Positions 2,562-36,665 are shown, counted from the stretch's first letter. The stretch is 64,000 nucleotides of DNA from a virus (IMGVR_UViG_3300036940_000207:5749-69748), one strand, 5' to 3'. Numbers and translations: made by a program. The notes: generated from the sequence alone by a model not told the origin.

Positions 2562-3063
2562 TGAGTAATACTTGGTTTACGTCAGATTGGCATTTCTTCC
2601 ATGATAATATTCTTAAATATGAGAAGAATAATAGACCATTTAATAATATTAAAATGATGCATAACAAAATCATTGCTAACTATAACATGATGGTTAGCAA
2701 TGATTTTGTTATGTATTAGGTGATATTGCAATAGTTAATAACTCTAACTTAAATAAGTTAGATAAAATTATTAATTCTTTAAATGGTAGAAAAATTCTCA
2801 TATTGGGTAATCATGATGAAGGAATGCCATTTCGTTATTTGAAAATGGGATTTGAATCAGTTCATACATCTCTTGAATTGAATGAATGGAAACTTGTACA
2901 TGATCCTGCATGGGCAATAATGCAGAAGAATAAAACACACATTGTAGGACATGTGCATAGTTTATTTAAGATACAAGGAAATTGTATAAATGTGGGAATT
3001 GATGTTAGAAATTTGTTTCCAGTAAGTCTTGAAACATTATTAGAAGAAGAAAAGGGACTGTAA
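2561..3063 (+). pseudogene. Calcineurin-like metallophosphoesterase with a 1-nt frameshift near 2710
   Basis: DWHFFH, LGD, GNHD and GHVH motifs split over two frames. Confidence 0.75.
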
Positions 3064-3077
3064 TTACAGTCCCTTTT
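3050..3077. terminator. Bidirectional intrinsic terminator between converging early and late blocks
   Basis: Perfect palindrome aaaagggactgtaa/ttacagtccctttt. Confidence 0.85.
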
Positions 3078-3253: not shown

Positions 3254-3736
3254 TTACTCCTTATTAATTAACTCTGACAAACTAATAATTCTATCTATCA
3301 ATGTGTCTGGTACATGAACTCCTTCTATATACTTATCCATAATTATTTCTAGAGTTCTAGTTTCTTCTGCTAGTAAACTTACCAGATGTAATACTTTGTC
3401 TTTGTTATAAACTTTTCTACCTTCATTTAGAGCATCATACCATATTTCAACTTCTTTTTGAAGTTTATTATTATAAATTTTATGGTTTACTCATATAACA
3501 CCAATTTCATCTTTTTGATCCTCATTAATAAGATCTCTTTGTAACAAATCATTAGTTACATTACCAACAGTAGTACTTAATTCCTCAGAATAATCAAGTA
3601 ATGTATAAGCCAATACAAAATCTTTTGATAACTGTTCCCCTTTTTCAGTTGATACATCTTTTGGTAAACATCCAAAGGATGTAATCACAAAACTGATACA
3701 AAACATCATTATCATAACTTCTTTTAATTTCTTCAT
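3254..3736 (-). CDS. Predicted lipoprotein (spanin-like?), code 4
   Basis: Signal peptide ending ITSFG-C; one in-frame TGA extends it to TAA at 3254. Confidence 0.6.
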
Positions 3737-3745
3737 AATATCTCC

Positions 3746-4321
3746 TTATTTGTTTTTCTTTAATAAAAATTCTGGTAAAAATTTTGAATTAAAAAGTTGA
3801 ACCATTTTTAATTTAATTTTTGGTAATTTTGGTCTTCTTTGTGTAATTTCATTCCAGGTATGTAAAAAGTCCTCAATATCCTTCTCTTCAATAATGAACA
3901 ATGATATGTGTGGAATCATTCCACCTTCAAATACTTTAACATCACTTAATTCATTAACAACTAAATCATGGGCAGTTTTATATTGTTCATTTTTCTTCAT
4001 TTCTATAGTTATGAAATATTTACCTACATACTGACCATATAATAATTTTAATCTTTTAGGATTCATTATAAAATTTGAAGGTAATCGTTGCATTAATCTA
4101 ACCAATTTAGGTTTAGTATATGTACCAGTAATTTGTGCTACGGTTATATGAGGAGAATTATTCTGTTGATATGGAATATTAAAATGATCTAACCAACTCT
4201 TAATATATTCTATGGTTTGATTAATATCAGATACATTAACTTTGTATCCAATCATAGTTCTAGACATCTTCTTACCAGTAACCTTATTAGTTTTTTCTTG
4301 TATAAATTTATAAAATCTCAT
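3746..4321 (-). CDS. 2H phosphoesterase (T4 57B/Acb1 fold family)
   Basis: Two HxT/S motifs (PHITV, PHISL); N-terminus MRFYKFIQE. Confidence 0.7.
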   Translation of the reverse strand: MRFYKFIQEKTNKVTGKKMSRTMIGYKVNVSDINQTIEYIKSWLDHFNIPYQQNNSPHITVAQITGTYTKPKLVRLMQRLPSNFIMNPKRLKLLYGQYVGKYFITIEMKKNEQYKTAHDLVVNELSDVKVFEGGMIPHISLFIIEEKDIEDFLHTWNEITQRRPKLPKIKLKMVQLFNSKFLPEFLLKKNK

Positions 4322-4331
4322 AGTATTCTAC

Positions 4332-4988
4332 CTACTTAAATATTTGTTTGTTTTCATCTCATTTTGAATGAAGAATTTCTAACTTACTCATATTTACATA
4401 ATAATATTTATCACAATTAATTCACACCTCATAATTATTATAGTAAGCATCATCAAAACTTCTATCGGTCACAAAGTATTCTTCAAATGATAACTTTAAA
4501 TAATTAGGGTTTTCATCACTTATTAAATAATCACTTATTGCATCATAATCTCATCCTGTTCTCTTATCTTCTATATTAGCATCATCAGATCTAATAAATG
4601 TGTAAGATATATTCCCAATTGGGAATATATAGCATATAGAAGATCCAAATAAAATTAACTTATTTGGATCTTTAGCATTTTTACACATTACAGACTTATC
4701 TCTTCTATTATGGCCATTTTGTTCTAATCAAGTATTCAATGCATTAGCTTCAGAAGCAATCATTCCTTGGGGTTTTCTATTTTTTCTTACATTTTGAATA
4801 TCTATAAACTGATCACCTTTTGGAGTCATACCTCTAACTAAAGGAGATTTACCCTTAATCAATTTAAGATATGGTTTGCATCACTTCTTTACATTATCAT
4901 TAAATTCTTGTAAATCATTGTTTAAATCAATTATGTCTTTTCCAACTTTAACTTCTTCAACTTCATTTAAAAATTTATATAATCTCAT
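4332..4988 (-). CDS. ART-like paralog 1 (putative ADP-ribosyltransferase fold), code 4
   Basis: MRLYKFLNE start; VRG, RDKSVMC, IFPIG and YEVWINCDKY motifs; open if TGA=W. Confidence 0.55.
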
Positions 4989-4998
4989 AATTAAATTC

Positions 4999-5166
4999 CT
5001 ATAATAATATTATTACTCCCTTAACTAATAACAATATTACTCCTAACATTATAACAATGTTTATTAATACTTTAACAGCATTTCTTTTATCAATTTCATC
5101 TGTAACATTAGCAGTTTTAAATACTCCACCCATTCTTAGTAACCATTCCAATCCTTTATACAACAT
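4999..5166 (-). CDS. Small membrane protein, partial duplicate of the C-terminus of 5180-5791
   Basis: LRMGGVFK shared; 20-nt identical DNA stretch; hydrophobic C-terminus. Confidence 0.5.
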   Translation of the reverse strand: MLYKGLEWLLRMGGVFKTANVTDEIDKRNAVKVLINIVIMLGVILLLVKGVIILL

Positions 5167-5179
5167 AATACAATTCTCC

Positions 5180-5791
5180 TTATGCTGATTTTATACTTTT
5201 AATAAATTTAACTACTTCATTACTCTTGATACTTGTTAATACACCTTCTAAAGATGCAAATGAAATATTGGATAATGACATATGTTTAGCGACATGTAGG
5301 ATACTCTTACCAGTTGCTACTCCACCTAATATAGCAAATCCAAATATAATTGTATAAAATACAACCTCTGTTGCTTTCTCTTGTCTTCCTTTATCTGTGA
5401 TTCCAGCAGATTTAAATACTCCACCCATTCTTAATACTTGTCTAAGTGTAACAATATACGCATGATGTCATTTATCTGTCATTTTGATCAACTTTTCAAT
5501 AACACCTTCATCTTCCTTGGTATCTTTACCAAATAACTTCTTGATTTTATCAAGTACAAATTTGAAAGATTTAGCGATAGTTTTTATAATAGTGGGCATT
5601 CCTAGTATCAAAGAAATTATAAGTGTTACAGATACTGCCTCATCTACTCTCCCATTATACTCTACAAGATGTGATTCGTCAATAGGTTTATACATTTGTA
5701 AAGATTCCAGTGTCTTATCAAAACCCTCATTTAATGAAAGTTCTATTTCCTCATTTAAGTATGTGTTTAATTTGTTTAATAATTCAGTCAT
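5180..5791 (-). CDS. Hypothetical protein with hydrophobic segments, code 4
   Basis: Two track ORFs joined by one TGA; N-terminus contains YLNE. Confidence 0.65.
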
Positions 5792-5807
5792 TTAATTATC
5801 TCCTTAT

Positions 5808-7241
5808 TTATTTTATTAATTTTTTTGTAATATTTGACATAATTTCTTTCATTGTATCAGTATATCCCTTACCAAGAAAATTTAATCCACTTATATTTCA
5901 AATACCTGTGGCGTGTCCACCACTACCTTGTTCTATAATATCCCAGGTACTTATTTTAACTCTTTCTAATATATCCTTCTGCTTTCTGGTTAAATCTTTA
6001 AATCTTTTGTTAGTTATGTCTTTAACCATATCTGTTCATTTTTTCTTACCATCTACTTCAACCCCTTTAATCTGTTCGGGGGTGAATTGTGATATTAAAT
6101 CATCAAATGTAAATCCAACAGCACCTTCTAAATTTTTCTTAGTTATATCTTCTTCATATTTCTTCTTTAAATAGGCAAGACTCACCATATTATTTTCTCA
6201 TTGAGATTTATATTTGTTTAATACTTTATTTACCACTTCTTGAAAATTTACTGTTACATTCTTTTCCTTAAATGGATTAGCACTTACTTGAATCATTCCC
6301 ATTGGTCATCCCATTACTAAAAATTTAGCATCTGGATGATTTTTAAATACTACATATCTATCAAATTGAACACCTCTCTTTGGTGACATATTTCCACCAC
6401 CATATTGAATTACCACATTGCCTAATTCTCCAGATTGACCATTTTGTAAATTCTTAATATCTTTAGGTGACTTTAAATCAACAATATTTTCTTCTTGTTG
6501 TTTAACATATGTTTGTTGTTGTTGTTCAATTTCTTCAGGTGCTCTATACCCTTCTTGTTTTGCTAACCTTCTAGTAACATTATACAAAGATATAATAGAA
6601 GGGTTTGCTGTTTCTACTAATTTATTAAGAAAATCTGGTTTGTTCTTATATGAAAGTAATAACTTATTTGCTACAAGTCCCATTCTTCATTTGTTATCTT
6701 TTACTGAAATTGAACGATCCAGTCCAAAAGCTGCTCTCATTATATCATCTGGAGTTAAACCATGTTTATAAAAATCTGCTGAATCTACTGTTGAAATAAT
6801 TTCCAAATCTTGCATTGGAGAAATTAATCTTTTAGACATTTCAGCAGATATATGATAAGCATTAGCTGGTGCATCAATAAATGAGGTAGATGTTCCCGGT
6901 TTAATTCCACTTTGTCCTGAATGGTGATCTGTTCATACATTAACAAAGGGTTTGCCTTGACTAAAATCAACCATACAAACTAATGTATCTTTATCTCATG
7001 TTTTCTTTACATTATATGATATGTTCCCATATTGAACTACTTGAACATCTTTTAATTTCAAATTATATTCATTCTGTAAAATATATTTAAGTGAAATTGC
7101 CGAAAAAACACCATCTAAATCCATGTGGTATAAGATACTGAATTTATTGTGTTTTTTTATAAGGTTTTTCAATCCTTTTATATTTGCCTCATCTAATTTA
7201 TCATAGATGTCTAATTCTTGTAATCATAAATCTAGTTTCAT
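5808..7241 (-). CDS. DHH-family phosphoesterase (477 aa), code 4
   Basis: HMDLDG, MVDFS, WTDHH and SGGH motifs; N-terminus MKLDLWLQE. Confidence 0.8.
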
Positions 7242-7598
7242 TTATAAACCTCCCCCCATAGCAGCACTAGCAGTAGTTAAAAATGGTGTCATATCTATAC
7301 TTATGTTTGAAGGAATTTCTTTTTGTTTTGAAAGAAACTCTTTTATTTCTCTCTCTAAGTTGTTCTCACCTTTTTTAGTTGGTGGATATTCTTCAGTATG
7401 AAATATAGATTTATTCTTATACTTAATATCTACCCATATTTTCTTACTTTTCTCCTTTTCATTATCAATTACAGATTTACTAGGTATATTATTTTGTAAA
7501 ATTACGAAATTATATTTTCCCTTTTTAAAAGTATATAATATTTTTGATCATTTATATTGATCTTCTAATAAATATTTCTCCACTAAATCTAGTTTCAT
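7242..7598 (-). CDS. Hypothetical protein, code 4
   Basis: MKLDLVEKYLLE start; one TGA. Confidence 0.6.
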
Positions 7599-7882
7599 TA
7601 TGATTCTCCTATTTCTTCTTTAGCTTCTTGTTCACCATCTGTTCTGTTACTTTCATAATCTTTATCTAATTTCTTTAATAAATGTTCAAATTCACCTACA
7701 TGATGTTCTTCTTCATCACTTACATGTAAAAATATCTTTTTCACATCTGGATCTCTAGCTTTCTGTGCCATTTTTGAATATAAGTTAGAAGCATATCATT
7801 CTTCTTTAATAGCTTCTCTTAACATTTCAACATCTGTATATTCATCATAATTATTTTCATTTAAAAATTTTCTTAATCTCAT
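7598..7882 (-). CDS. Ferritin/rubrerythrin-like protein, code 4
   Basis: EAIKEEWYA...Y and EEEHHVGEF di-iron-type motifs; MRLRKFLNE start. Confidence 0.7.
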
Positions 7883-7891
7883 AATAATCCT

Positions 7892-8140
7892 TTATATTGA
7901 ATATTTACTTAATTGTTTCATAACACTCTTTGGTGTTTCATATGGCAAATCTAATGTAATAGTACCATCCTTCTCTTTCTTCTGTTTAACACCTTTCTTT
8001 TTCAAATCTTTCATTAACTTCTTAACATAACTATCCTTTGGGTTAATTCTAACCATTTTATTAGATATAGCACTATCAGCATCTAAGTTACCAACTGTAG
8101 ATGTGGTTATTTCTTCATTTATTCAGTCTCTAAATTTCAT
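7892..8140 (-). CDS. Small hypothetical protein, code 4
   Basis: MKFRDWINE start (W=TGA). Confidence 0.6.
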
Positions 8141-8141
8141 A

Positions 8142-8856
8142 TTATACCTCAAATAATCTATCAAATATTTCTTCATATACTAGATCAAATTCTTTATAAT
8201 GAATTCCATAATAAGATTTTGACATTAACATAATTTCATTATGTTTGGGTATATTTGGTATATCACTTGCGTCTGAAACTTTATACTTTCTTACCAAATC
8301 ATATATATATGATTTCATATCTTGTTCTGCTTCACCACTTAATAAATATTCTTTAAATACTTGATATGATTCAAACTGTTCTTGTTCGAAGTCATCCATT
8401 CCTAATCATACAGATCTTGTATCACCACCTTTTTTTAAGAAACCTGATATAAGATCAAAATTTATTACTTAAATGATCATATAAATCTCTAACTTTAGGT
8501 GATCACATTAATTTGTATTTTCCTATAGGAAATATTACATAAGTTGTACCGTATGCCATTGTTTTTATATAATTAATATAACAAAATAAAGATGAAGATC
8601 TAGGTCTAAATCCAAATTCATCATAAAATTCATTATCTATTATATCATGTGTTTCTTCAGGAGTATCTAATGGTATTCTGTCTTGTCTCACATCTCTTTT
8701 TATAATAGTTTTAGAACTATTTCTACCAGAATATAAAAGATTTGGTCATGATTTTCTTTGTTTCTTTAAATCATTAATAAATATAGAACAATCCTTTTTT
8801 AACTGTTCTATATCTTTACCTACAGATACTTCATTTAAATAATTGTATAATCTCAT
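8142..8856 (-). pseudogene. ART-like paralog 2 with a 1-nt frameshift at about 8430-8460
   Basis: MRLYNYLNE; YSGR, RPRSSSLFC, YG..YVIFPIG; terminal NEIML motif lies in the downstream frame. Confidence 0.55.
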
Positions 8857-8857
8857 A

Positions 8858-9487
8858 TTAACCAATTCCTAATTTCTGCTTAAATTCACTTCAATAATCG
8901 GGATGAACCAATATATATTTATCACAATTAAATATTGCTTCAAATGAAGGGTTTGCTGTTCTAGTTAAATATTTTGGTAATTCTTTGGAACTATATTTTT
9001 TTCTATACATATCTACTATATGTTTTCTGATAATTTCCAAATTCTCAGATTTTTCTTGTTCTGAATAAAGATCACTATTTTTAGTTATTCCATAATCATC
9101 ATATAAAGAATAAACTGCACGTTTTGTAGGTCCATATGCTCATACATACTGATAATTACCCATAGGTATGAATATAAATCTTTTACCAAAACTTAGAGCT
9201 GTTCTTTCATCTCCAGTAAAGGCGCCTTCAGATCTTATATTTCATCCTCATAATTCTTTTGATACCTTACCTAAATATTCATGTAATTCTTCAGGAATAA
9301 ACCTTGGTTTTCTATTTTTATGAACATTCTTAACAGTATAATGTGTAGTGCTTACTTTATTATGTCCTCTTCATATTAATTGGTCCGTTTCTTGTTCTAG
9401 AACAGACCTAAATTCTTTAAGAAATGGCTCAATAGCAGATTTAATCTTATCATCAACTTTTTCATTTAAATAATTATATAATCTCAT
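8858..9487 (-). CDS. ART-like paralog 3, code 4
   Basis: MRLYNYLNE; WRG, RSEGAFTG, FIPMG and FEAIFNCDKY motifs. Confidence 0.55.
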
Positions 9488-9488
9488 A

Positions 9489-10052
9489 TTATTCTAACTC
9501 TCTTAATTTTTGTTTAATCACTGATATAATGTTTTTTTGTGTAGTGGTTAAATTTCTCTTCGATTCAAGATTGGATAAAATTTCTTTAGTAGATCTTACA
9601 GTTTTATCTCTAAAAGAAGAAGATGCTTGTTTAAGGTCTGAAACATTATCTAGTCTATCAGCTAACTTAATAACTAATGCCCAATCACTCATATTAATCA
9701 TTTTGTCCGATAAATATTTAGATTTGCCTACCTTTTTTATTTCTTCAGGATCACTAGTTAATTCTTTAACTATGGAAGCAACCAATCCACCAAATAATTT
9801 ATTTAAATCTTTAAATGTAGTATTTGTATCTTCGATAGTATCATGAAGTAATGAAGCAGATATTAATTGATCTAATTTATGGGATTGTTTGAACTTTTTA
9901 ACTATTGCAGCTACTCTTTTTGGATGTTCAAAATATGGTTCATTTGAAAATTTTCTTCTTTGTCCTTTATGTTTAATAGAACCAAATTTTTCAGCAAAAT
10001 CTTCAATTGTTGCTGCATCTTCTAATATAGAAATATAACTCTTTAATCTCAT
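9489..10052 (-). CDS. HD-domain (p)ppGpp hydrolase-like protein (SpoT/MESH1 type)
   Basis: H.GQRRK...PYFEHP, LLHDTIEDT, IKLADRLDN. Confidence 0.85.
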   Translation of the reverse strand: MRLKSYISILEDAATIEDFAEKFGSIKHKGQRRKFSNEPYFEHPKRVAAIVKKFKQSHKLDQLISASLLHDTIEDTNTTFKDLNKLFGGLVASIVKELTSDPEEIKKVGKSKYLSDKMINMSDWALVIKLADRLDNVSDLKQASSSFRDKTVRSTKEILSNLESKRNLTTTQKNIISVIKQKLRELE

Positions 10053-10054
10053 AT

Positions 10055-10759
10055 CTAGTAAACTTCCTTTTTATCTACCAATGTCAATTTGCCACTCTTA
10101 GGATCTATTAATAAACCAAAGAATTCCATCACTGGTTCATTTTCTGGTATGTTATACTCTTGTCTCACATCTTCTATTATATCATTAGAAATCTTATTTG
10201 TCATATTTAAGAACTGTTTCACATTCTTATCATGATCATCTATCATTCTAACTCTTCTATATTGTTCATGTTTTAAATAGTTCAGTATAACTCTTTCTTT
10301 TCTTTCAGGTATTGTACCTGATTTTAAATTTCCTACTCTTTCAATATATACAGTTGGTCTAAAATCAACATCAATACCATATTCTCTAAATGTTTGTAAA
10401 AATTCTTGTTTATTATCAAAGTCAGCTCTAGCAGTTAAGAAAATGATTTTACTTCCTCTTTTATTCTTCTTTAACATAGAAATCATTCTTTTTAATCTTT
10501 CAATAGTAGGCATAATTGGTTTAGATGTTTTTCTAAACAATTCAGCATCTCTAAATTCTTTAAAATCAAATTCTTCATTATCTTTAAGTTGATAAAAGTT
10601 AAATTCTTGGTTATCTAGTTTTCTAATTACTTCACCTGTCTCTTTATCAATCACATGAATCTTAGCAAATGTGGAAAATACAGTTTCATCAATATCTACA
10701 AATGTAATACCTTTACCATATTCACTTTTTCTCTCATTCAAATATGTATACAATCTCAT
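10055..10759 (-). CDS. HAD-superfamily phosphatase
   Basis: VDIDET, FLTAR and MIDDHDKN motifs; MRLYTYLNE start. Confidence 0.75.
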   Translation of the reverse strand: MRLYTYLNERKSEYGKGITFVDIDETVFSTFAKIHVIDKETGEVIRKLDNQEFNFYQLKDNEEFDFKEFRDAELFRKTSKPIMPTIERLKRMISMLKKNKRGSKIIFLTARADFDNKQEFLQTFREYGIDVDFRPTVYIERVGNLKSGTIPERKERVILNYLKHEQYRRVRMIDDHDKNVKQFLNMTNKISNDIIEDVRQEYNIPENEPVMEFFGLLIDPKSGKLTLVDKKEVY

Positions 10760-10787: not shown

Positions 10788-10799
10788 TATTTATAAATA
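10788..10799. promoter_or_regulatory. Overlapping divergent T4-type late promoters
   Basis: Palindrome TATTTATAAATA gives TATAAATA on both strands, between divergent genes at 10759 and 10831. Confidence 0.75.
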
Positions 10800-10830: not shown

Positions 10831-11288
10831 ATGAGATTATACAATTATCTAAGTGAAAATGAGTTAAATGAATCTATCAAATCAACATTTACCTCCATAG
10901 TTAAAGATCTTACCAAAAAATCTGAAGATCAAATGAAATCAATATTGAAGAAAATTGGGATAAATTAGTATCTTATATTAAGAAGAATAATTTAGAGGAT
11001 GAGTTTCAGAAAATATCTAGAAGGGCTTTTGGTAAGAAGATAAACATTAATGAAATGAATGAAGTGACTGCTGAACCTGAAAAGAAGGGATTCAAGAACT
11101 GATTAAAAAGCTTATTGTTTCAAGGTAGAATTGGTGCTGGAATATTTACATCATTACAAATATTCTTTGAGTTAGATGTATTAATAGAAGGTGATATACC
11201 AGATCCTAAAAGACTTCTTATATATGCATTCTTATGGTTAGCATTATCTTCATGAATATATAAGGATTGAAAGAAGGGAGAAGCCTAA
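10831..11288 (+). pseudogene. Hypothetical protein with a 1-nt frameshift near 10952
   Basis: MRLYNYLSE start; frame resumes after an A-run and continues through TGA codons to TAA 11288. Confidence 0.5.
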
Positions 11289-11403
11289 GTGGTAACTAAT
11301 CCCTAAATAAGACCAATTTTGTACCTAAAGTGGTAAATGGTCATAAAAATTTCCGGGGTTTGGGGTAAACCATCCCTAAATTTTACTATAAGGAGAACTA
11401 AAT

Positions 11404-11822: not shown

Positions 11823-11913
11823 AGAGGGACAGAGGGTAGCTCCCTTTGATTGAATACCCTTACTATTCAATCTAACCTCTATATTACTTTATTCAGTAAG
11901 GGAGAATAAAATG
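11823..11913 (+). promoter_or_regulatory. Structured RNA leader A of endonuclease gene
   Basis: Three-way junction; loop ACCCTTACT complementary to SD region AGTAAGGG. Confidence 0.7.
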
Positions 11914-12999
11914 GCAAAGAGATTAACATATGATCATGTAAAACATTCTATTGAAAAAGAGGGTTATGAATTATTAAGTGATGGGTACAAAAATGACAAC
12001 ACAAAATTAAAAATTCAATGTTCTGAAGGTCATATATTTGAAATGAGGTATAGAGCTTTTTATATGGGGCAAAGATGTCCAACTTGTGCAAGAATAAAAA
12101 GAGGAATGTTAAAAAGAAACACATTTCAATGTGTTAAAAGATTTATAGAAAATGAAGGATATAAACTTATTTCTAAAGAATATAAAAACGCACACACTAA
12201 GTTACAGATCAAATGTCCAGAAGAACATAGATTTGAAATGAAATTTAACGCTTTCCAACAAGGTCAAAGATGTCCTGAATGTGCCATTAAAAGAAATAAT
12301 GATCTAAAAAGATTTGATTATAAAGACGTAAAAAATTATATCGAATCCTTTGAAGGATATAAATTGCTGAGTGAAGAATATATAGGTTCTAATACAAAAC
12401 TAAAAATTCAATGTTCTGAAGGTCATATATTTAAAATGACCTTCGCTTGTTTTAAAAACCGTGGTCAAAGATGTCCTAAATGTTTTGGTAATAAGAGATT
12501 AACTAACCAAGAGATTATTGATTCACTAATCTTTTGTGAAAATATTAGAGAAAATAAAAATGAAGAAGTAGAAGTTACATGTGCATACTGTGGTGAATGG
12601 TTCATTCCTAAAAGATCAAATCTAACATATAGAATTCTATATGTTAATGGTGAAAAAAATAAAGAATCTAGATTGTATTGTTCACAACAATGTAAAGATA
12701 ATTGTCCCACGTATAATCAAAAATTATATCCCAAAGATTTTAAACCAGCAACATCAAGAGAAGTTCAACCTCAGTTAAGGCAAATGGTTTTTGAACGTGA
12801 TAATTATACATGTCAGCGATGTAACACTCATAAAGATGAATTAGAATGTGGTATACATTGTCACCATATATTACCATTAAATGAAGATCCGATACAATCA
12901 GCAGATGTAGATACATGTATAACCTATTGTGAGAATTGTCATAAGTGGATACATCAGAATGTTGCTGGTTGCGGATATGGTGAAATGAGGTGTGTATAA
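11911..12999 (+). CDS. HNH endonuclease with repeated Zn-finger units (putative homing endonuclease)
   Basis: Three GY.L.S..Y...TKL.I.C.E.H.F...GQRCP.C repeats; C-terminal CQRC...HCHHI...CENCH. Confidence 0.8.
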   Translation: MAKRLTYDHVKHSIEKEGYELLSDGYKNDNTKLKIQCSEGHIFEMRYRAFYMGQRCPTCARIKRGMLKRNTFQCVKRFIENEGYKLISKEYKNAHTKLQIKCPEEHRFEMKFNAFQQGQRCPECAIKRNNDLKRFDYKDVKNYIESFEGYKLLSEEYIGSNTKLKIQCSEGHIFKMTFACFKNRGQRCPKCFGNKRLTNQEIIDSLIFCENIRENKNEEVEVTCAYCGEWFIPKRSNLTYRILYVNGEKNKESRLYCSQQCKDNCPTYNQKLYPKDFKPATSREVQPQLRQMVFERDNYTCQRCNTHKDELECGIHCHHILPLNEDPIQSADVDTCITYCENCHKWIHQNVAGCGYGEMRCV

Positions 13000-13026: not shown

Positions 13027-13389
13027 ATGAGATTAAATAATTACTTAAATGAACGGAAAGGAAAGGCGTTGCCCTAATCACAAAGAAGAAAGATAAATAA
13101 AGAAGTTCAAAAATTACTCCAACCGACCTATTTCAAACAAATTCCATTACAAGATTTGTTTGATATATTAGATAAGTATGGCATTGTTCCGGTACAAGAA
13201 GATAACACATACTGGTCAGGTATGCTAGCTGGTGGAGTTAAAGATACTGTTCAGACATATTTTGAACTTGCCTGGAAAGATAGTAAAGAAGGTAAAACAT
13301 ATACAGAACCAGTAAATAATGCTATGTTAGCATTATCCTATTATAAAATGCCTTCTGGTAAATATGAGGTCATTGGATATATAACATAA
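13027..13389 (+). pseudogene. Hypothetical protein with in-frame TAA at 13075
   Basis: MRLNNYLNE start with AAGGAG RBS; the frame stays open after the TAA. Confidence 0.5.
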
Positions 13390-13399
13390 GGAGGATAAG

Positions 13400-13588
13400 A
13401 TGAATATATTAGAAAAATTAAATACTTATATTCAAGAATTTGATTCTTTAATTGAAAATGAAGATAAATATGAGAAAATATTTAAGAAAAAGTTAAAGGA
13501 ATGAGGTGTTGATAAGGCAAGTGAATTATCAAATAAGGATAAGAAGAAATTTTTTGATGAAATTGAGAAGGAATGAAAAGGGAAATAG
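13400..13588 (+). CDS. Small head-associated hypothetical protein, code 4
   Basis: KKKLKEWGV...KKKFFDEIEKEWKG; both W are TGA. Confidence 0.65.
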
Positions 13589-13590
13589 TT

Positions 13591-14324
13591 ATGAGATTAT
13601 ATGATTATCTAAATGAATCAAGAACTAAATCAATTCCTGAATTTAAAGCTCTTGATACTATAGTAACTGAATGTAAAGATATTGCTAGTAGATTTTTAGA
13701 TGATATATATATATCATGAGAGGAAGTAGAACAACTGAAGATTTTCTACATTTAAAACCTGGAAATGAATTAAGAAAATCTGCTCACACATCTAATTATT
13801 ATACACTTTTCATTAATAATCATCCATTATGAAAAGATTATCCTAAGAGACAAATAATATGTTCAGGTGGAAGTGGTGAAAGAGCAATGGCACATTTATC
13901 AAGAACTGTATATTATGTATTTCCAATAGATAGATCTAAAATAGGCATTTGTCCAGATGATGATATTTGATCATCCTTTGATGATCAAATATTAAGATAT
14001 TTTGAAATTAGAGATGTCTCTAATTTAGATCAATTTAACCAAATGTTGGATTATTATGGTTTTAGTGATGATAATTGACAAACATTTAAAAAACAATTGC
14101 AAACTGAAGAAATTGATGTGAAGAATAATAAAAATATGAATGCTATGAAATTATTAGAAGAAGTACTTAATCCTAATAAAAATGGATTTAAAGTTGAAAC
14201 TACTAATAATTTAAGTTTAAATTCATTAGATAATCAAGAAGTATGATTAGATAGTGAATGTATATTAGTTAGTTATAGTCAAAAAGAAAAATTAGAAAAT
14301 TTATTTAGAGATGAAGGATTATAA
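13591..14324 (+). pseudogene. ART-like paralog 4 with a frameshift at or next to an (AT)6 tract near 13710
   Basis: MRLYDYLNE; RG, YYVFP and NQEVWLDSE motifs. Confidence 0.5.
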
Positions 14325-27189: not shown

Positions 27190-27813
27190 ATGAAAAAGTT
27201 GAAACTTATAACTGAGAGTAATTTTGACATATTAACCGAAGAAGATTCTAACAAGAATTTATATGTAACTGGTATATTTTCTTCAGCTAACAAAAAGAAC
27301 AGGAATGGTAGAACATACCCCAAGCACATATTAGAAAGAGAGGTAAATAAACTAAAAGATCAAATTAAAGAAAATGGTCCCATACTAGGTGAATTATCTC
27401 ATCCTGAAAGTAGATGTGAAACAAAGTATGAGTTAGCTTCTCATGGAACTGAAGAGTTATGATGAGAAGGAGATAATGTTTATGGAAGAGCAAAGGTACT
27501 AAAAAGTTTACCTTATGGATCTGTTCTTGAGGGTTTAATAAAAGAAAAAATTAAGATAGGGATTTCAAGTAGAGCACTTGGAAGTTTAAAAGAGAATAAT
27601 GAAGTGTCAGAAGATTTAAATATGATTTGTTGGGATGCAACTTCTAATCCTTCAAATTATGGAAGTTGGGTTAATGGTATACTTGAAGGTAAAGAATTTA
27701 GTATTCCCGAATCTCAAGTTATGGAACCTAATGAAGAACAGATCAAAGAGGCTAAAGAAGAATATTATAGAAAACTTTGACAAGTAATTGATAATATTGA
27801 GAAGAATTTATAA
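27190..27813 (+). CDS. gp21: Prohead protease (T4 gp21-like), code 4
   Basis: GIF..ANKKNRNGRTYP, GELSHP, GISSRALGS. Confidence 0.93.
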
Positions 27814-27824
27814 GGAGAGAAATT

Positions 27825-28052
27825 ATGCAAGATAAGACATTATTAGAAAAATTAAATTTATTTTTAGGTGAATCTGAAATTGATTGAAAACAGGTAAAAG
27901 AAGCAATGATAAATGCCGCTGAAGATATCTTTGATGAACCAGATAAAAAGGTTATTGATGATATGATTTCTACTATTAAAAAGAGAAATGATGCTAAGGA
28001 TACTGAAGATGCGATCCAGATTGGCATTAATATGATGAGAAGTGAAGACTAA
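27825..28052 (+). CDS. Small head-region protein, code 4
   Basis: LLEKLNLFLGE N-terminus; one TGA. Confidence 0.6.
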
Positions 28053-28066
28053 TATAAGGAGAATTT

Positions 28067-28369
28067 ATGCAAAATAAACTATTAGAAAAAATTGATAAAT
28101 ATTTGGAAGGTAGTATTAACCTAGATGAAAAAGTTTCTAGAAAAGAAGCTCTTCAAAAAGTAGAGAGAACAATAAAATCAGCAAAAACAGACAAACAATT
28201 AGAAGTTGCATCTAAAATGGTTGGAAACTTTATTAAAATGTATGGTGAAAAATTCATTGATGATGTTAAAAATCTTTTAAGTCCCCTTAGAAAAAACACC
28301 ACTGATAAATTTCTGAGAATGATTGATGATCAAAAAAAGAAAATTGAACTGGAAAAAGAAAGATCATAA
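28067..28369 (+). CDS. Small head-region protein
   Basis: LLEKIDKYLE N-terminus. Confidence 0.65.
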   Translation: MQNKLLEKIDKYLEGSINLDEKVSRKEALQKVERTIKSAKTDKQLEVASKMVGNFIKMYGEKFIDDVKNLLSPLRKNTTDKFLRMIDDQKKKIELEKERS

Positions 28370-28480: not shown

Positions 28481-29215
28481 ATGGAATTAGATAAAATCCT
28501 AGAGATGTTAGGTGTTGATAAACTTGACGAATCTAAACAAACAGAAGTTCAGGAAAAACTTCAAACCATTATTGAAACTAAAGTAGATGAGAAGGTCAAG
28601 GAAAAGGAAGAAACTCTTAAAGAAGAGTTAACAGAACAATTTGAGCAAAAATTTGAAGATTATAAAACTGATATTACTGAAAAATTTAGTAATTTTCTGG
28701 ACGAAGTAATCGAAGAAGAGATGAAAATCCCTGAAAAGATTAAGGAATATGCAAGAAAGGGTGAATTATACTCTGATGTTATGGAAACATTGAAGGTAAG
28801 AATGGGAATTGATGAAGGTGTTCTTGATGATGAAACTAAGAGTTTGATTAAAGAATCAAGAGATGAAATTTCTAAACTTACTGATCAAGTTAATTCTTTA
28901 ACTTCTGAGAACATGGAAATGAAGAAAGATGCTAAAGAGTTAAGTGCTGGTCTTTATCTAAGAGAGAAATGTGAAGGTCTACCTTTTAAACAAAAGGAAA
29001 AGATTATTTCTTTACTAGAAGGTATTACTTCTAAAGAAGAAATTGATAAGAAGTTTGATGTTTTGGCTGAATCAACCAAGAATGAAGAAACTGAATTAAC
29101 TGAGGAAAATAAAGGTAAGGGTAAAGAGGAAGGTAATTTAACTGAAGAAGTAAGTGATGATCCATTTACCCAAATGAAACAACAATGATTAACCATTATG
29201 AGTGAAGAAAAGTAA
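28481..29215 (+). CDS. gp22: Prohead scaffold (T4 gp22-like), code 4
   Basis: E-rich coiled coil before the major capsid gene; late promoter at 28424. Confidence 0.8.
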
Positions 29216-29252
29216 TTGAAATATAAATATTCTAAAGGAGGAATTAAAAATT

Positions 29253-30458
29253 ATGAATAAACAAATTTTAGAAAAATGAAAGGAACTATTAGAGAGTGAA
29301 AATGCTCCAAAGTTCAAAAGTAATAAAGTTAAGGAAGCTACTGCATTGATGTTAGAGAACCAGTTTTCTTATTTAAGCAAACAAGGTTATAACATGAATG
29401 AAGCAATTTCTGATCCTGGTACAGCTGCTTATTCAGGTAGTTTAACACCTCAAGGAAATTCTTATGGTCAAAGTGGATACTTTCATAAGATTGCTATTCC
29501 AATGGTAAGAAGAACATTTCCTGAGTTAATTGCTCACGAAATTGTAGGTGTCCAACCAATGACTGGACCAGTTGGATTAGCATTTGCTATGAGATTTAAG
29601 GCTGATCAAACTTATAATAGTGGAACTAATCAAGAAATTGGTTACAATACTATTGATAAAGACTATTCTGGAACTTATGAAACAAGTGCTGGTGAAGCAT
29701 TAGGATCTAATGAAACTAATGATTTGGGTCTTGGATTTGGAGATGGTACAGCTATCAAAGAATTAAGTATGACCTTAGAGAAAGATCAGGTCGAAGCAAA
29801 AACCAGAAAGTTAAGAAGCAGATGGTCAATTGAAGTTGCACAAGATATTCAAAATATGCACGGACTTGATCTTGAAAGTGAAATGACAGAAGCACTTTCC
29901 TACGAGGTAACTGCAGAAATTGATAGAGAGTTAATTGGTGAGATCAGAAGTGTTGCACCTCCTACTTCATATGATTATGACACTGATTTTGATGGTAGAT
30001 GGGAATCTGAAAAATATAGAAATCTATATAATGCAATGATCAGAAAAGCAAATAGAATTGCAGTTAAGACAAGAAGAGGTCCAGCTAATTGGGCAGTTGC
30101 TAACCCAACTCTTTGTGCAGCTCTTGAATCTACACCAAGTTTTGCTACACATCCAACGGGTGCAAATGTAAACACTGCTATTACTGGTGTTGCAAGAGTT
30201 GGATCATTAGATGGTAGAATGACTCTTTATAGAGATACTTTCTATGATACTGATAGTATTCTATTAGGATTCAAGGGTGTGAACGAATACGATACTGGAG
30301 TTGTTTATCTTCCTTACATCCAATTAATGTTGGATAGAGTTACTGATTATGCAAGTTTCCAACCTGCAATTGGTTTACTAAGTAGATATGCAATTCATAA
30401 ACATCTCCACGGGGCTTCAAATTTCTATGAAGAATTAGTATTTACTTCAATGCCTTAG
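29253..30458 (+). CDS. gp23: Major capsid protein (T4 gp23-like, 401 aa), code 4
   Basis: AAGGAGG RBS; MNKQILEKW(TGA)KELLE; VGVQPMTGP, VEAKTRKLRSRWSIEVAQD. Confidence 0.97.
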
Positions 30459-36101: not shown

Positions 36102-36665
36102 ATGAGACTAATAAATTATTTAAATGAGAATTCAATAATTGATGAAATTAGAAAAATTTTAAAGACAAGATGTAAAAAATATCTTAATGAATTTTTACCT
36201 AATTTTAATGGAATGTATTATATGTGATCAGGAAGAGATGGAATAAGTAAACCATATACTATTAAAAAAGTTAGAAAAGATAGAAAACCAATGAACACAC
36301 CTTTAAAGATTCATAATAAAATTGATGATATGTTTGAAGATGAATTTGGTTATAGACCAAGAAGTAATTCAATTTTTGTTACTGGCAATAAAAACATGAC
36401 TGATCTATATGGTGATCCATTCATGGTGTTTCCGTTAATGAATTATAAGTATTTATGAAACCCAAATATTAAAGATTTTTACATGTCAGTTAATTTTGAA
36501 AAAACAAACGATGAACAACTAAAAAATATTGTAAAAAATTATAAAAATGATGAATTATATAGAGGTCTTAGAAGTGGTGTAGAAATAATGTTAACCTGTG
36601 ATGAATATCTCTTAATATCAGATGAACTAAAAGAAGAAGTGGATATAATACTAAAAAATTGATAA
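36102..36665 (+). CDS. ART-like paralog 5, code 4
   Basis: MRLINYLNE; WSGR, RPRSNSIFVTG, YG..VFP and VEIMLTCDEY motifs. Confidence 0.55.

What the first reader, a model, noticed from the sequence alone, without database searches (positions are those of the whole stretch)
3746..10759. Tagged cargo is enriched in nucleotide-signal erasers (2H, DHH, HD, HAD)
Seen: one late operon encodes a 2H phosphoesterase, a DHH phosphoesterase, a SpoT/MESH1-type HD hydrolase and a HAD phosphatase, each with the tag. Established: T4 Acb1 is a 2H enzyme that cleaves CBASS cyclic oligonucleotides, HD enzymes of this type degrade (p)ppGpp or (p)ppApp, and DHH enzymes degrade cyclic di- and oligonucleotides. Inference: late-expressed enzymes delivered with the DNA could act as a pre-loaded anti-defence and anti-stringent-response kit before any phage transcription.
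Basis: inference. Interest (0 to 1): 0.78.

Follow-up and report, generated by a model that had tools for sequence, protein, structure and literature searches.

The report
Capsid-tagged phosphoesterase cargo, T4-like phage
A T4-related phage that reads TGA as tryptophan has one late operon whose proteins, including four intact nucleotide/RNA phosphoesterases, begin with a T4-style capsid-loading peptide, so they are probably injected with the DNA; their likely targets look more like damaged tRNA/RNA 3' ends and alarmones than cyclic immune signals.

Summary
Read with TGA=Trp, window 10795-3050 (minus strand) is one operon with a T4-type late promoter and a terminator. It encodes a HAD phosphatase, a MESH1-type HD hydrolase, a DHH/DHHA1 phosphoesterase and a 2H phosphoesterase, all with intact catalytic motifs. 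About ten of its thirteen products start with MRLYxYLNE or a variant: 13 strict matches in the genome against 0.09 expected.

The tag follows the T4 capsid-targeting rule (aromatic, aromatic, L/I, x, E), and the genome has the T4 head protease, scaffold, portal and capsid genes. Packaging and injection are therefore likely (about 0.8) but unmeasured.

The "nucleotide-signal eraser" reading is only partly supported. It fits the HD. The HAD's nearest folds are T4 Pnkp-type 3'-phosphatases. The 2H is closest to Usb1/LigT, not Acb1. Related cargo islands carry tagged P-loop kinases and a tagged CCA-adding enzyme, with untagged RNA ligases elsewhere. A tRNA/RNA 3'-end repair and anti-toxSAS kit is at least as likely.

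The four enzymes are not a conserved module; only HAD and DHH recur together. This scan has noted similar T4-like tags on other uncultured phages. I rate it a new variant of a known kind.

The parts
10788..10795 (-). T4-type late promoter core (TATAAATA), 29 nt upstream of the first cargo gene. It overlaps a divergent copy at 10792-10799 (+) that serves further tagged ORFs.
   Evidence: 9 of 25 sites lie 10-70 nt upstream of gene starts, against a null mean of 1.1
10055..10759 (-). HAD phosphatase, 234 aa, leader MRLYTYLNE, no TGA. Pnkp-type / class IIIB fold.
   Evidence: Acid_phosphat_B 29.4 bits; phrog_415 1e-8; Z 12.0 to the T4 Pnkp 3'-phosphatase. About 75 of 80 viral homologs carry a T4-like leader.
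9489..10052 (-). HD hydrolase of the RelA/SpoT (MESH1 / small alarmone hydrolase) type, 187 aa, leader MRLKSYISILE, no TGA. It starts 2 nt after the HAD stop.
   Evidence: HD_4 2e-14; MESH1 2e-17; HP, LLHDxxEDT and KLADxLxN intact
8858..9487 (-). Tagged paralog 3 (phrog_11975, unknown function), leader MRLYNYLNE
8353..8856 (-). Tagged paralog 2 (phrog_11975). The C-terminus is W-rich and may be frameshifted.
7892..8176 (-). Small ORF with an internal tag-like start MKFRDWINE at 8140
7598..7882 (-). Tagged 94-aa ferritin-like protein (EncFtn/EncB-like), leader MRLRKFLNE
   Evidence: Rubrerythrin 2e-10; EncB_fam 1.6e-15
7242..7598 (-). 118-aa ORF, leader-like start MKLDLVEKYLLE, no family
5808..7241 (-). 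DHH/DHHA1-type phosphoesterase, 477 aa, 8 TGA codons. Leader MKLDLWLQE...KLDE, followed by the conserved core.
   Evidence: all DHH motifs conserved; more than 1400 homologs; E18 of the L-x-E is nearly invariant
5180..5791 (-). 203-aa protein with two hydrophobic helices and an offset leader (MTELLNKLNTYLNEE)
4332..4988 (-). Tagged paralog 1 (phrog_11975), leader MRLYKFLNE
3746..4321 (-). 2H phosphoesterase, 191 aa, leader MRFYKFIQE, no TGA. H58-I-T and H138-I-S.
   Evidence: Usb1 Z 16.0; relatives hit 2_5_RNA_ligase2, HVSL and LigT
3254..3736 (-). Untagged lipoprotein-like ORF (signal peptide plus Cys), last gene of the operon
3050..3077 (-). Terminator-like hairpin (12-bp stem) closing the operon
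27190..27813 (+). T4 gp21-type prohead protease (Peptidase_S77), the presumed processing enzyme for the leaders
   Evidence: 8.5e-28
27825..28369 (+). Two small ORFs (27825-28052 and 28067-28369) in the position I expect for gp67/68-like core proteins (my reading of the T4 gene order, not tested). Their N-termini resemble the class-2 leader.
28481..29215 (+). T4-type scaffolding protein (T4_CASP), the presumed docking partner of the leaders
   Evidence: 3.5e-18
29202..30458 (+). Gp23-type major capsid protein. The propeptide ends ...YNMNE before the conserved core.

Best explanation
Window 10795-3050 (minus strand) is a late 'cargo island' of an uncultured, TGA=Trp-recoded T4-superfamily myovirus.

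The 9-11-residue N-terminal leader (M-R/K-L/F-x-x-aromatic-L/I-x-E) is this lineage's version of the T4 capsid-targeting sequence. My proposed sequence of events is:
1. The leader docks the newly made protein onto the scaffold core of the prohead.
2. The gp21-type S77 protease cuts it off after the Glu.
3. The mature enzyme stays in the head.
4. It enters the next host cell with the DNA.

The four phosphoesterases are intact enzymes. What they share is chemistry on phosphorylated 3' ends of ribonucleotides or RNA:
- HD: removes a 3'-pyrophosphate, from (p)ppGpp/(p)ppApp or from tRNA-CCA.
- HAD: a Pnkp-like 3'-phosphatase.
- 2H: a Usb1/LigT-like enzyme acting on 2',3'-cyclic phosphates or RNA 3' ends.
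- DHH: a short-oligonucleotide or pAp hydrolase.

I think they most likely form a pre-loaded kit. It would lower alarmones and restore tRNA/RNA ends disabled by host translation-targeting defences (toxSAS pyrophosphorylation, tRNA nucleases). These are injuries that newly made phage proteins cannot fix once translation is blocked.

Status of each step:
- Shown: gene content, folds, motifs, tag statistics, and presence of the head machinery.
- Inferred: packaging, cleavage, injection, and every substrate.

Odds: packaging about 0.8. Given packaging: RNA-end repair with alarmone/tRNA-pyrophosphate removal about 0.45, cyclic-signal erasure about 0.25, other about 0.3.
For: Tag as a capsid-targeting sequence (CTS):
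- In T4, CTS residues 4 and 7 drive targeting and residues 8 and 10 drive gp21 processing (PMC9026906). T4-family proteases cut after Glu (PMC5694885). Here the pattern is Y4, Y/F6, L/I7, E9.
- S77 protease, T4 scaffold, T4 portal and Gp23 are all in the window. The MCP propeptide ends M-N-E.
- The leader is a detached, low-confidence helix in both AF2 models.
- 13 strict tags against 0.09 expected.
- Relatives use lineage-specific versions on unrelated proteins: class 1 on 46 of 1166 ORFs against 0.05 expected, class 2 on 28 against 1.6.
- The same enzyme families also exist without a leader: a cultured Vibrio phage HD and distant 2H members.

Late operon.

Enzymes.

RNA-end reading:
- HAD's top three structural neighbours are T4 Pnkp phosphatase (Z 12.0), the Pnkp1/Rnl/Hen1 repair complex (Z 11.5) and T4 PNK (Z 11.4). 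phrog_415 'polynucleotide kinase' scores 1e-8.
- 2H is nearest to Usb1 (Z 16.0), and its relatives hit 2_5_RNA_ligase2, HVSL and LigT.
- Relatives' islands hold tagged P-loop kinases in at least 8 loci. The nearest solved relative of one is seryl-tRNA(Sec) kinase, 4.5e-4.
- L025 has a split, doubly tagged CCA-adding enzyme (PolyA_pol 4.5e-35), and CCA-adding enzymes sit near HAD in L030 and L034.
- RNA ligases occur in 4 of 5 related contigs.
- Phage SAHs neutralise all tested toxSAS and remove the tRNA modification. SAH plus T4 PNK is the laboratory recipe for cleaning such tRNA ends (PMC7229694, PMC11245113). HAD and HD are adjacent, coupled genes here.
Against: - No virion proteomics or cleavage data exist for this phage or any relative.
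- This fragment (CheckV about 29% complete) contains no kinase, RNA ligase or CCA-adding enzyme.
- The CCA-adding enzyme is near HAD in only 3 of 80 loci, and kinases in 8 of 80.
- DHH is not a classical RNA-repair component.
- HD never co-occurs with HAD elsewhere (0 of 80 loci). Complete HD-bearing genomes lack HAD, DHH and 2H. The 'kit' is therefore a lineage-specific assembly.
- The structural neighbours of HAD are separated from AphA-type nucleotidases by only about 1 Z unit.
- The 2H is roughly equidistant from several 2H families, Acb1 included.
- Packaged RNA-repair enzymes have no precedent.
Confidence: 0.4

Rival explanations
1. One reading: the tagged 2H, DHH, HD and HAD are pre-loaded erasers of immune and stress signalling nucleotides. 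They would degrade CBASS or type III cyclic oligonucleotides, c-di-AMP and (p)ppGpp before any phage transcription.
For: - The HD is MESH1/SAH-type with an intact catalytic site.
- The 2H fold also matches Acb1 (Z 11.2; viral Acb1 models at 6.6e-5), the penguinpox cGAMP PDE and viral 2',5'-PDEs.
- Some DHH/DHHA1 enzymes degrade c-di-AMP, pGpG and cyclic oligoadenylates (my own knowledge). The only weak solved-structure match of the DHH profile is the pGpG hydrolase PggH, E 0.29.
- A virion protein with anti-CBASS activity exists: ICP3 Gp15 (bioRxiv 10.1101/2025.07.23.666291).
Against: - HAD is a monoesterase of the Pnkp/AphA type.
- 2H is closer to Usb1, LigT and CPDase than to Acb1, and its family hits the LigT and HVSL Pfam models.
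- The A1 profile finds no sequence link to Acb1 in the PDB.
- The four enzymes do not co-occur in other phages.
- The CCA-adding enzyme and kinases among relatives' tagged cargo have no role in signal erasure.
Confidence: 0.22
2. Nucleotide economy. DHH (as a nanoRNase/pAp phosphatase) and HAD (as a nucleotidase), with 2H and HD, finish the breakdown of host RNA and nucleotides to feed phage DNA synthesis. The enzymes would act in the cytoplasm late in infection, and packaging would be incidental or absent.
For: - HAD and DHH are the only recurrent pair: 11 of 80 loci, same strand, 2-8 kb apart, plus shared long contigs.
- AphA-type nucleotidases are within about 1 Z unit of the top HAD matches.
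- NrnA-type DHH enzymes degrade short oligonucleotides (my own knowledge).
Against: - The leader is conserved on HAD in about 75 of 80 homologs down to 45% identity. That argues the leader is functional.
- The genes sit in arrays of tagged ORFs next to head genes, not with nucleotide-metabolism genes.
Confidence: 0.12
3. Care of the virion genome. A PNKP-like 3'-phosphatase, a RecJ-like DHH and a ferritin-like ferroxidase are packaged to limit and repair oxidative strand breaks in the phage DNA during the extracellular phase and at entry.
For: - A tagged EncFtn/EncB-like ferritin lies in the same operon.
- T4 Pnkp-type phosphatases also act on DNA 3'-phosphates (my own knowledge).
- The DHH has a weak RecJ hit, 0.0085.
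Against: - The MESH1-type HD, the 2H, and the CCA-adding enzyme and tRNA-kinase-like cargo in relatives have no evident role in DNA repair.
- There is no ligase in the island.
Confidence: 0.07
4. The shared N-terminus is not a packaging signal. It could be a recognition leader for a modifying enzyme, a translation-initiation feature, or a membrane or secretion address.
For: - An earlier case in this scan (e1-127136) re-read a shared phage leader as a radical-SAM recognition site.
- No direct packaging data exist.
Against: - No radical-SAM gene is found in the fragment (weak evidence, since the fragment is about 29% complete).
- The pattern and the terminal L/I-x-E match the experimentally defined T4 CTS rule.
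- The T4 protease and scaffold are present.
- Upstream DNA and codon usage of the leaders are not conserved as DNA.
- The leader is hydrophilic-amphipathic, not signal-peptide-like.
Confidence: 0.12

Closest known systems
T4 internal proteins IPI, IPII, IPIII and Alt with their capsid-targeting sequence (Mullaney & Black 1996; reviews PMC9026906, PMC3012670)
   Same: A short N-terminal leader on otherwise unrelated late proteins, with aromatic and L/I residues and a terminal Glu at matching spacing. A gp21-type S77 protease, T4 scaffold, portal and Gp23 are in the same genome. The literature already sees the CTS as a way for T4-like phages to load varied proteins.
   Different: The leader is one residue shorter (Y4, Y6, L7, E9 against positions 4, 7, 8, 10 in T4). 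The cargo is not small basic anti-restriction proteins but 20-55 kDa phosphoesterases, a ferritin-like protein and a three-member paralog family. There are ten or more cargo genes in one operon. The phage is recoded (TGA=W) and shares at most about 35% MCP identity with cultured relatives. Packaging has not been measured.
T4 Pnkp (with Rnl1) tRNA repair against the PrrC anticodon nuclease, and bacterial Pnkp1/Rnl/Hen1 repair complexes
   Same: The HAD's best structural matches are the phosphatase domains of exactly these enzymes (Z 12.0-11.4). Relatives carry P-loop kinases, RNA ligases and a CCA-adding enzyme.
   Different: Kinase and phosphatase are separate proteins, each with a capsid leader. 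They are late genes. T4 Pnkp is, from my own knowledge, a fused, early, cytoplasmic enzyme. No kinase or ligase was found in this fragment.
Phage small alarmone hydrolases PaSpo (Salmonella phage SSU5) and PbcSpo (PVP-SE1)
   Same: A single-domain MESH1/SpoT-type HD hydrolase encoded by a phage. Those enzymes neutralise all tested toxSAS toxins and remove the tRNA 3' modification (PMC7229694, PMC11245113).
   Different: Here, and in several uncultured T4-like relatives, the enzyme has an added N-terminal capsid-type leader. The closest cultured homolog has none. Which SAH subfamily it belongs to was not determined.
Acb1 (2H anti-CBASS phosphodiesterase of phages T4 and FBB1)
   Same: 2H fold with two H-x-T/S motifs, phage-encoded, Z 11.2.
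   Different: Not the nearest neighbour: Usb1 scores Z 16.0 and LigT/CPDase 12-13.6. The protein is larger (191 against about 140-150 aa). No sequence-level link was found. Family members hit the LigT, 2_5_RNA_ligase2 and HVSL models.
DHH/DHHA1 phosphoesterases (NrnA, PggH, GdpP, RecJ)
   Same: All four DHH motifs and the GGH motif are conserved.
   Different: Very divergent: Pfam DHH 18.8 bits against a cut-off of 28.1, and PggH only at E 0.29. It is about 140 aa longer than NrnA-type enzymes (my own knowledge of their size). It forms a large phage-only family of more than 1400 clusters and is absent from cultured phages except two huge uncultured ones.
ICP3 Gp15 ejectosome protein that inhibits the CBASS effector CapV (bioRxiv 10.1101/2025.07.23.666291)
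   Same: A virion-delivered protein acting against a nucleotide-signalling defence.
   Different: Gp15 is a structural ejection protein that blocks the effector stoichiometrically. It does not degrade nucleotides and has no CTS-type leader.

Membership tests
T4-type capsid-targeted internal proteins (CTS cargo) | Leader at the extreme N-terminus with aromatic/hydrophobic targeting residues and an L/I-x-E processing site | tested here: met
   rule taken from PMC9026906
T4-type capsid-targeted internal proteins (CTS cargo) | Same genome encodes a gp21-type S77 prohead protease and a T4-type scaffold core | tested here: met
   Peptidase_S77 8.5e-28, T4_CASP 3.5e-18, Portal_T4, Gp23
T4-type capsid-targeted internal proteins (CTS cargo) | Expressed late, together with the head genes | tested here: met
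   TATAAATA 29 nt upstream; placement statistics. This is an inference from a motif, not from RNA data.
T4-type capsid-targeted internal proteins (CTS cargo) | Protein is found processed inside virions and is ejected into the host | not testable with these tools
   needs virion proteomics or reporter fusions
2H phosphoesterase superfamily | Two H-x-T/S motifs on a duplicated alpha/beta lobe fold | tested here: met
   H58-I-T and H138-I-S are invariant. Z 16.0 to Usb1 over 170 residues.
2H phosphoesterase superfamily | Pfam model above the gathering score | tested here: not met
   LigT_PEase 13.5 bits against a cut-off of 23.3 for the window protein. Relatives hit 2_5_RNA_ligase2 (13), HVSL (7) and LigT (5) at E<=0.01.
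Acb1 anti-CBASS nucleases | Specific sequence or structural affinity to Acb1 over other 2H families | tested here: not met
   No Acb1 hit with profile A1 at E<=10. Z 11.2 against 16.0 for Usb1. Viral Acb1 models rank 10 or lower.
Acb1 anti-CBASS nucleases | Hydrolysis of 3'3'-cGAMP or cyclic trinucleotides | not testable with these tools
   needs a biochemical assay
DHH/DHHA1 phosphoesterases | Motifs I-IV (DxD, D, DHH, D) and the DHHA1 GGGH-type motif | tested here: met
DHH/DHHA1 phosphoesterases | Pfam DHH / DHHA1 above the gathering score; fold | tested here: inconclusive
   DHH 18.8 bits against 28.1. 24 of 28 relatives match at E<=0.01. DHHA1 was not detected.
RelA/SpoT-homolog hydrolases (MESH1 / small alarmone hydrolase) | HD_4 domain above cut-off, with H..HD..ED..D/N catalytic residues, as a stand-alone protein of about 180 aa with no synthetase domain | tested here: met
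RelA/SpoT-homolog hydrolases (MESH1 / small alarmone hydrolase) | 3'-pyrophosphohydrolase activity on (p)ppGpp, (p)ppApp or tRNA-PP | not testable with these tools
   needs a biochemical assay
HAD superfamily phosphatases (Pnkp / class IIIB type) | Motif I DxDxT, motif II T/S, motif III K, motif IV DD, and the Rossmannoid fold | tested here: met
   D22, D24, T26, T109, K154, D174 and D175 are invariant or nearly so. Acid_phosphat_B 29.4 bits against 27. Z 12.0.
Pnkp/Rnl-type RNA repair pathway | 3'-phosphatase plus 5'-kinase plus RNA ligase in the same genome | tested here: inconclusive
   Only a phosphatase-like HAD is found here. AAA_33, RNA_ligase and PolyA_pol searches of the 29%-complete fragment were negative. 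Kinases (tagged) and ligases (untagged) are present in relatives.

The most novel reading that the evidence does not exclude
A large uncultured branch of the T4 superfamily pre-loads its capsids with a modular tRNA and RNA 3'-end repair kit. The modules are a small alarmone/tRNA-pyrophosphate hydrolase, a Pnkp-type phosphatase, a P-loop kinase, a CCA-adding enzyme, a 2H enzyme and a DHH nuclease, each addressed by a capsid-targeting leader. The incoming phage could then undo translation-targeting abortive-infection toxins (toxSAS, tRNA nucleases) and the stringent response before it has made a single protein. That would be an injected enzymatic counter-defence not described for any phage.
Probability: 0.22. 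Interest if true: 0.85.

Novelty: new variant of a known kind. Interest (0 to 1): 0.6.

Why it matters
T4's capsid-targeting sequence is textbook. Its known natural cargo is a handful of small anti-restriction proteins and the ADP-ribosyltransferase Alt.

Here the same address label sits on a whole operon of enzymes. The tagged HAD phosphatase alone recurs in at least 541 viral contigs. The injected proteome of environmental T4-like phages may therefore be large, enzymatic and predictable from sequence.

If the cargo repairs tRNA ends or removes alarmones at the moment of entry, it would explain how phages can escape defences that shut down translation, since no newly expressed antidote can counter those. 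It would also add a new layer, delivered enzymes, to the phage-host arms race.

The leader-plus-enzyme pairs are directly testable, and they offer natural parts for protein delivery by engineered T4 capsids.

Tried and rejected
- Plain and profile sequence searches of 2H, DHH and HAD against solved structures gave nothing usable. Fold searches were needed.
Pfam and NCBIfam also found nothing. Their ART-like nature remains untested.
- A structure of the DHH was not predicted, because both jobs went to 2H and HAD.
A homolog gave only generic DHH/DHHA1 leads.
- Searches of this genome for RNA ligase, AAA_33 kinase, CCA-adding enzyme and radical-SAM were all negative. The record is only about 29% complete, so these absences carry little weight.
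- I expected the four enzymes to co-occur in relatives, and they do not. HD-bearing complete genomes lack the other three, and 80 HAD loci contain no HD and only one 2H.
- No paper on the Burkholderia phage BCSR5 phosphodiesterase (a fold hit) is in the library.
- TATAAATA is not enriched in raw count (25 against 25.8 expected). Only its placement is significant.
- Sigma-70-like sites are not enriched (49 against 65).
- I did not run a complex prediction of leader with scaffold or protease. Those proteins contain TGA codons, and that tool takes code-11 proteins only.
I could not find it in the papers I read. The positional rule is cited from PMC9026906.

Full report
**What is there**

Under the standard code the region is a patchwork of short ORFs. 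With TGA read as Trp it resolves into 13 tightly packed minus-strand genes from 10759 to 3254.

The window is 64 kb of a single 69.7-kb viral contig at 27% GC. CheckV rates it about 29% complete. It is a myovirus of the T4 superfamily:
- Portal_T4, Peptidase_S77 (gp21-type prohead protease), T4-type scaffold and Gp23 major capsid protein.
- TerL, sheath and baseplate hub.
- Its capsid protein is at most about 35% identical to any cultured phage.

**The operon is late**

- The T4 late-promoter core TATAAATA lies 29 nt upstream of the first gene, with a divergent copy serving plus-strand tagged ORFs.
- The motif is not over-represented in raw count, but its placement is significant. Nine of 25 copies lie 10-70 nt upstream of a same-strand gene start (null mean 1.1, maximum 5). 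These include the protease, scaffold and sheath genes.
- A 12-bp-stem terminator-like hairpin at 3077-3050 closes the unit.

**The tag**

- The strict pattern M[RK][LF]xx[FYW][LI]xE occurs 13 times in the six-frame translation of the genome, against 0.09 expected. Every copy is at an ORF start.
- Upstream DNA is not conserved, so this is a protein signal and not a copied cassette.
- The experimentally defined T4 capsid-targeting sequence is a 10-residue N-terminal propeptide. Residues 4 and 7 direct targeting to the scaffold core, and residues 8 and 10 direct cleavage by gp21 (PMC9026906). T4-family proteases cut after Glu (PMC5694885). The tag here (Y4, Y/F6, L/I7, E9) is the same pattern, one residue shorter.
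- The capsid protein's own propeptide ends M-N-E just before the conserved core.
- In both AlphaFold models the tag is a detached, low-confidence helix ahead of the folded domain.
- Relatives carry their own versions on unrelated neighbouring genes. Examples are MKNFKTYLEE, MKTFKQFLDE, MKSFNYYLE and MLMFKQFIKE.
- In 80 related loci, class-1 leaders head 46 of 1166 distinct ORFs (0.05 expected). A second class (MNILEKID..., ending L-x-E before the first conserved block) heads 28 (1.6 expected).
- The same enzyme families also exist without any leader: the closest cultured HD homolog and distant 2H members. The leader is therefore a separable add-on.
- I put packaging at about 0.8. It has not been measured.

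**The four enzymes**

1. HD (9489-10052)
   - Pfam HD_4 at 2e-14. Its best solved relatives are Drosophila and human MESH1 (2e-17).
   - The H-P, LLHD-x-x-ED and KLAD-x-L-x-N motifs are intact.
   - SAH-type HD genes occur in 247 cultured phages.
2. HAD (10055-10759)
   - All HAD motifs are invariant. Pfam Acid_phosphat_B is just above its cut-off, and phrog_415 'polynucleotide kinase' scores 1e-8.
   - The model has pLDDT 87. Its three best structural neighbours are the T4 Pnkp 3'-phosphatase domain (Z 12.0), the Pnkp1/Rnl/Hen1 repair complex (Z 11.5) and T4 PNK (Z 11.4). AphA follows at 10.7.
3. 2H (3746-4321)
   - Both H-x-T/S motifs are invariant. The model has pLDDT 84.
   - The nearest solved structure is human Usb1 (Z 16.0, 170 residues). 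CPDase and LigT follow at 12-13.6, and Acb1 at 11.2.
   - Among viral models the top hits are RNA 2',3'-cyclic phosphodiesterase and 2'-5' RNA ligase-family proteins. Acb1 first appears at rank 10.
   - The family is rare: 62 representatives among 1.84 billion. Its members hit 2_5_RNA_ligase2, HVSL (the Usb1 family) and LigT.
4. DHH (5808-7241)
   - It is divergent: Pfam DHH scores 18.8 bits. All DHH motifs and the GGH motif are conserved in a family of more than 1400 clusters of about 475 aa.

**Context in other phages**

- The tagged HAD is the anchor. At least 541 viral loci carry it, and about 75 of the 80 I fetched have a T4-style leader.
- The DHH lies 2-8 kb downstream in 11 of those loci. 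The phrog_11975 paralogs appear in 6, and T4 head genes in about 8.
- The HD appears in none and the 2H in one. Complete genomes that carry the HD lack the other three. The four enzymes are therefore not a conserved module.
- A close TGA=W relative (L021) has the same kind of island. It holds at least 7 tagged ORFs, the 2H, the DHH and a tagged AAA_33/zeta-type kinase.
- Tagged kinases recur in at least 8 loci. The nearest solved relative of one is seryl-tRNA(Sec) kinase.
- L025 carries a CCA-adding enzyme split into two ORFs, each with its own leader (PolyA_pol 4.5e-35; tRNA_NucTran2_2 plus HD). L030 and L034 have CCA-adding enzymes beside tagged kinases.
- Untagged Rnl1- and Rnl2-type RNA ligases are present in 4 of 5 related contigs.

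**Mechanism**

What the four enzymes share is chemistry on phosphorylated 3' positions of ribose:
- HD: 3'-pyrophosphate.
- HAD: 3'-phosphate.
- 2H: 2',3'-cyclic phosphate or the 3'-terminal phosphodiester.
- DHH: pAp or short oligonucleotides.

Phage SAHs neutralise every tested toxSAS toxin, and they do so by removing the pyrophosphate that these toxins put on the tRNA CCA end (PMC7229694, PMC11245113). In that work tRNA ends are cleaned with an SAH plus T4 PNK. That is the enzyme pair encoded by the first two, coupled genes of this operon.

Taken with the kinases, CCA-adding enzyme and ligases of relatives, the better-supported reading is a pre-loaded kit. It would restore tRNA/RNA 3' ends and lower alarmones at the moment of entry. 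That makes sense against defences that block translation, because such defences also block synthesis of any antidote.

It does not fit the HAD, and no specific similarity to Acb1 supports it.

Weaker rivals are nucleotide salvage, care of the virion DNA (suggested by the tagged ferritin-like protein), and a leader that is not a packaging signal. For the last, no radical-SAM partner was found, but the genome is incomplete.

**Comparison and novelty**

The principle is established for T4: a CTS on diverse internal proteins that are processed by gp21 and ejected. The literature already suggests the CTS lets T4-like phages load varied proteins (PMC3012670, PMC9026906). This scan has also noted T4-like leaders on many genes of other uncultured phages.

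What is new here is the content: an operon-scale cargo of phosphoesterases, with a widely conserved tagged Pnkp-type phosphatase, in a recoded phage. My literature searches found one virion-delivered anti-CBASS protein, and it inhibits the effector. They found no report of a delivered nucleotide- or RNA-processing enzyme. I class this as a new variant of a known kind.

**Limits**

- All substrates, and packaging itself, are inferred.
- The genome is a fragment.
- The DHH fold and the paralog family were not resolved.
- The comparative support for RNA repair comes from relatives, not from this window.

Noticed in passing
window 7598-7882 (-): A 94-aa protein with the capsid leader (MRLRKFLNE) is ferritin-like. 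Its best family match is the encapsulin cargo ferritin EncB/EncFtn (NCBIfam EncB_fam 1.6e-15; Pfam Rubrerythrin 2e-10; EncFtn-like 3e-6). That would place an encapsulin-type cargo inside a phage capsid of, to my knowledge, the same HK97 fold.
   Followed up: partly
window 3746-4321, 9489-10052, 10055-10759 (-): The 2H, HD and HAD genes contain 0 TGA and 3 TGG codons. Their nine operon neighbours have 29 TGA and 4 TGG (Fisher p = 0.005), at the same GC content. These three enzymes can be read in the standard code. They may be recent acquisitions, or they may also be made before the code switch.
   Followed up: partly
window 10831-11290 (+): A tagged ORF (MRLYNYLSE) behind the divergent late promoter stops after 45 codons. 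An open frame under code 4 continues in another frame to about 11290. This could be a frameshift, a pseudogene or an assembly error.
   Followed up: no
window 13027-13077 (+): A 16-codon remnant, MRLNNYLNERKGKALP, resembles the HAD N-terminus. It lies directly after an HNH homing endonuclease gene (11911-12999), as if a second HAD copy had been disrupted.
   Followed up: no
window 13401-14324 (+): 13401-13589 has a class-2 leader (MNILEKLNTY...). 13591-13755 is a tagged N-terminus of the phrog_11975 type that shifts frame within a (TA)n tract near 13700 into ORF 13716-14324. This looks like a fifth paralog, split.
   Followed up: no
window 8142-8856 (-): Paralog 2 (8353-8856) ends in a Trp-rich stretch made by reading TGAs. 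It overlaps ORF 8142-8399, so the gene may be frameshifted.
   Followed up: no
window 4332-4988, 8353-8856, 8858-9487, 36102-36665: This tagged paralog family (phrog_11975) has conserved Y/W-R-G, R-x-D-R-x-P, R-S and E...C motifs. It recurs beside HAD and DHH in 6 of 80 related loci. It has no Pfam, NCBIfam or solved-structure match.
   Followed up: partly
window 5180-5791 (-): A 203-aa protein with two hydrophobic helices carries an offset leader (MTELLNKLNTYLNEE). It is a possible membrane-active cargo protein.
   Followed up: no
window 10176-10204 (-): The best sigma-70-like match in the region (11 of 12, with an extended -10 TG) lies inside the HAD gene, 124 nt upstream of the TGA-free HD gene. 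Such sites are not above chance overall.
   Followed up: no
L025:12889-14468 (+): A CCA-adding enzyme is split into two adjacent ORFs, each with its own capsid leader (MRLENYLNE, MRLMNFINE), in a related cargo island.
   Followed up: partly
L005:8267-10495 (+): In one related viral contig the HD hydrolase is the C-terminal domain of a 742-aa protein that starts with a leader-like MADLNYYLE.
   Followed up: no
L019:10723-11001 (+): On a 209-kb contig that carries an untagged-class DHH and a tagged HAD, a gene with the Pfam Tad6 domain lies about 1.3 kb downstream of the DHH gene.
   Followed up: no
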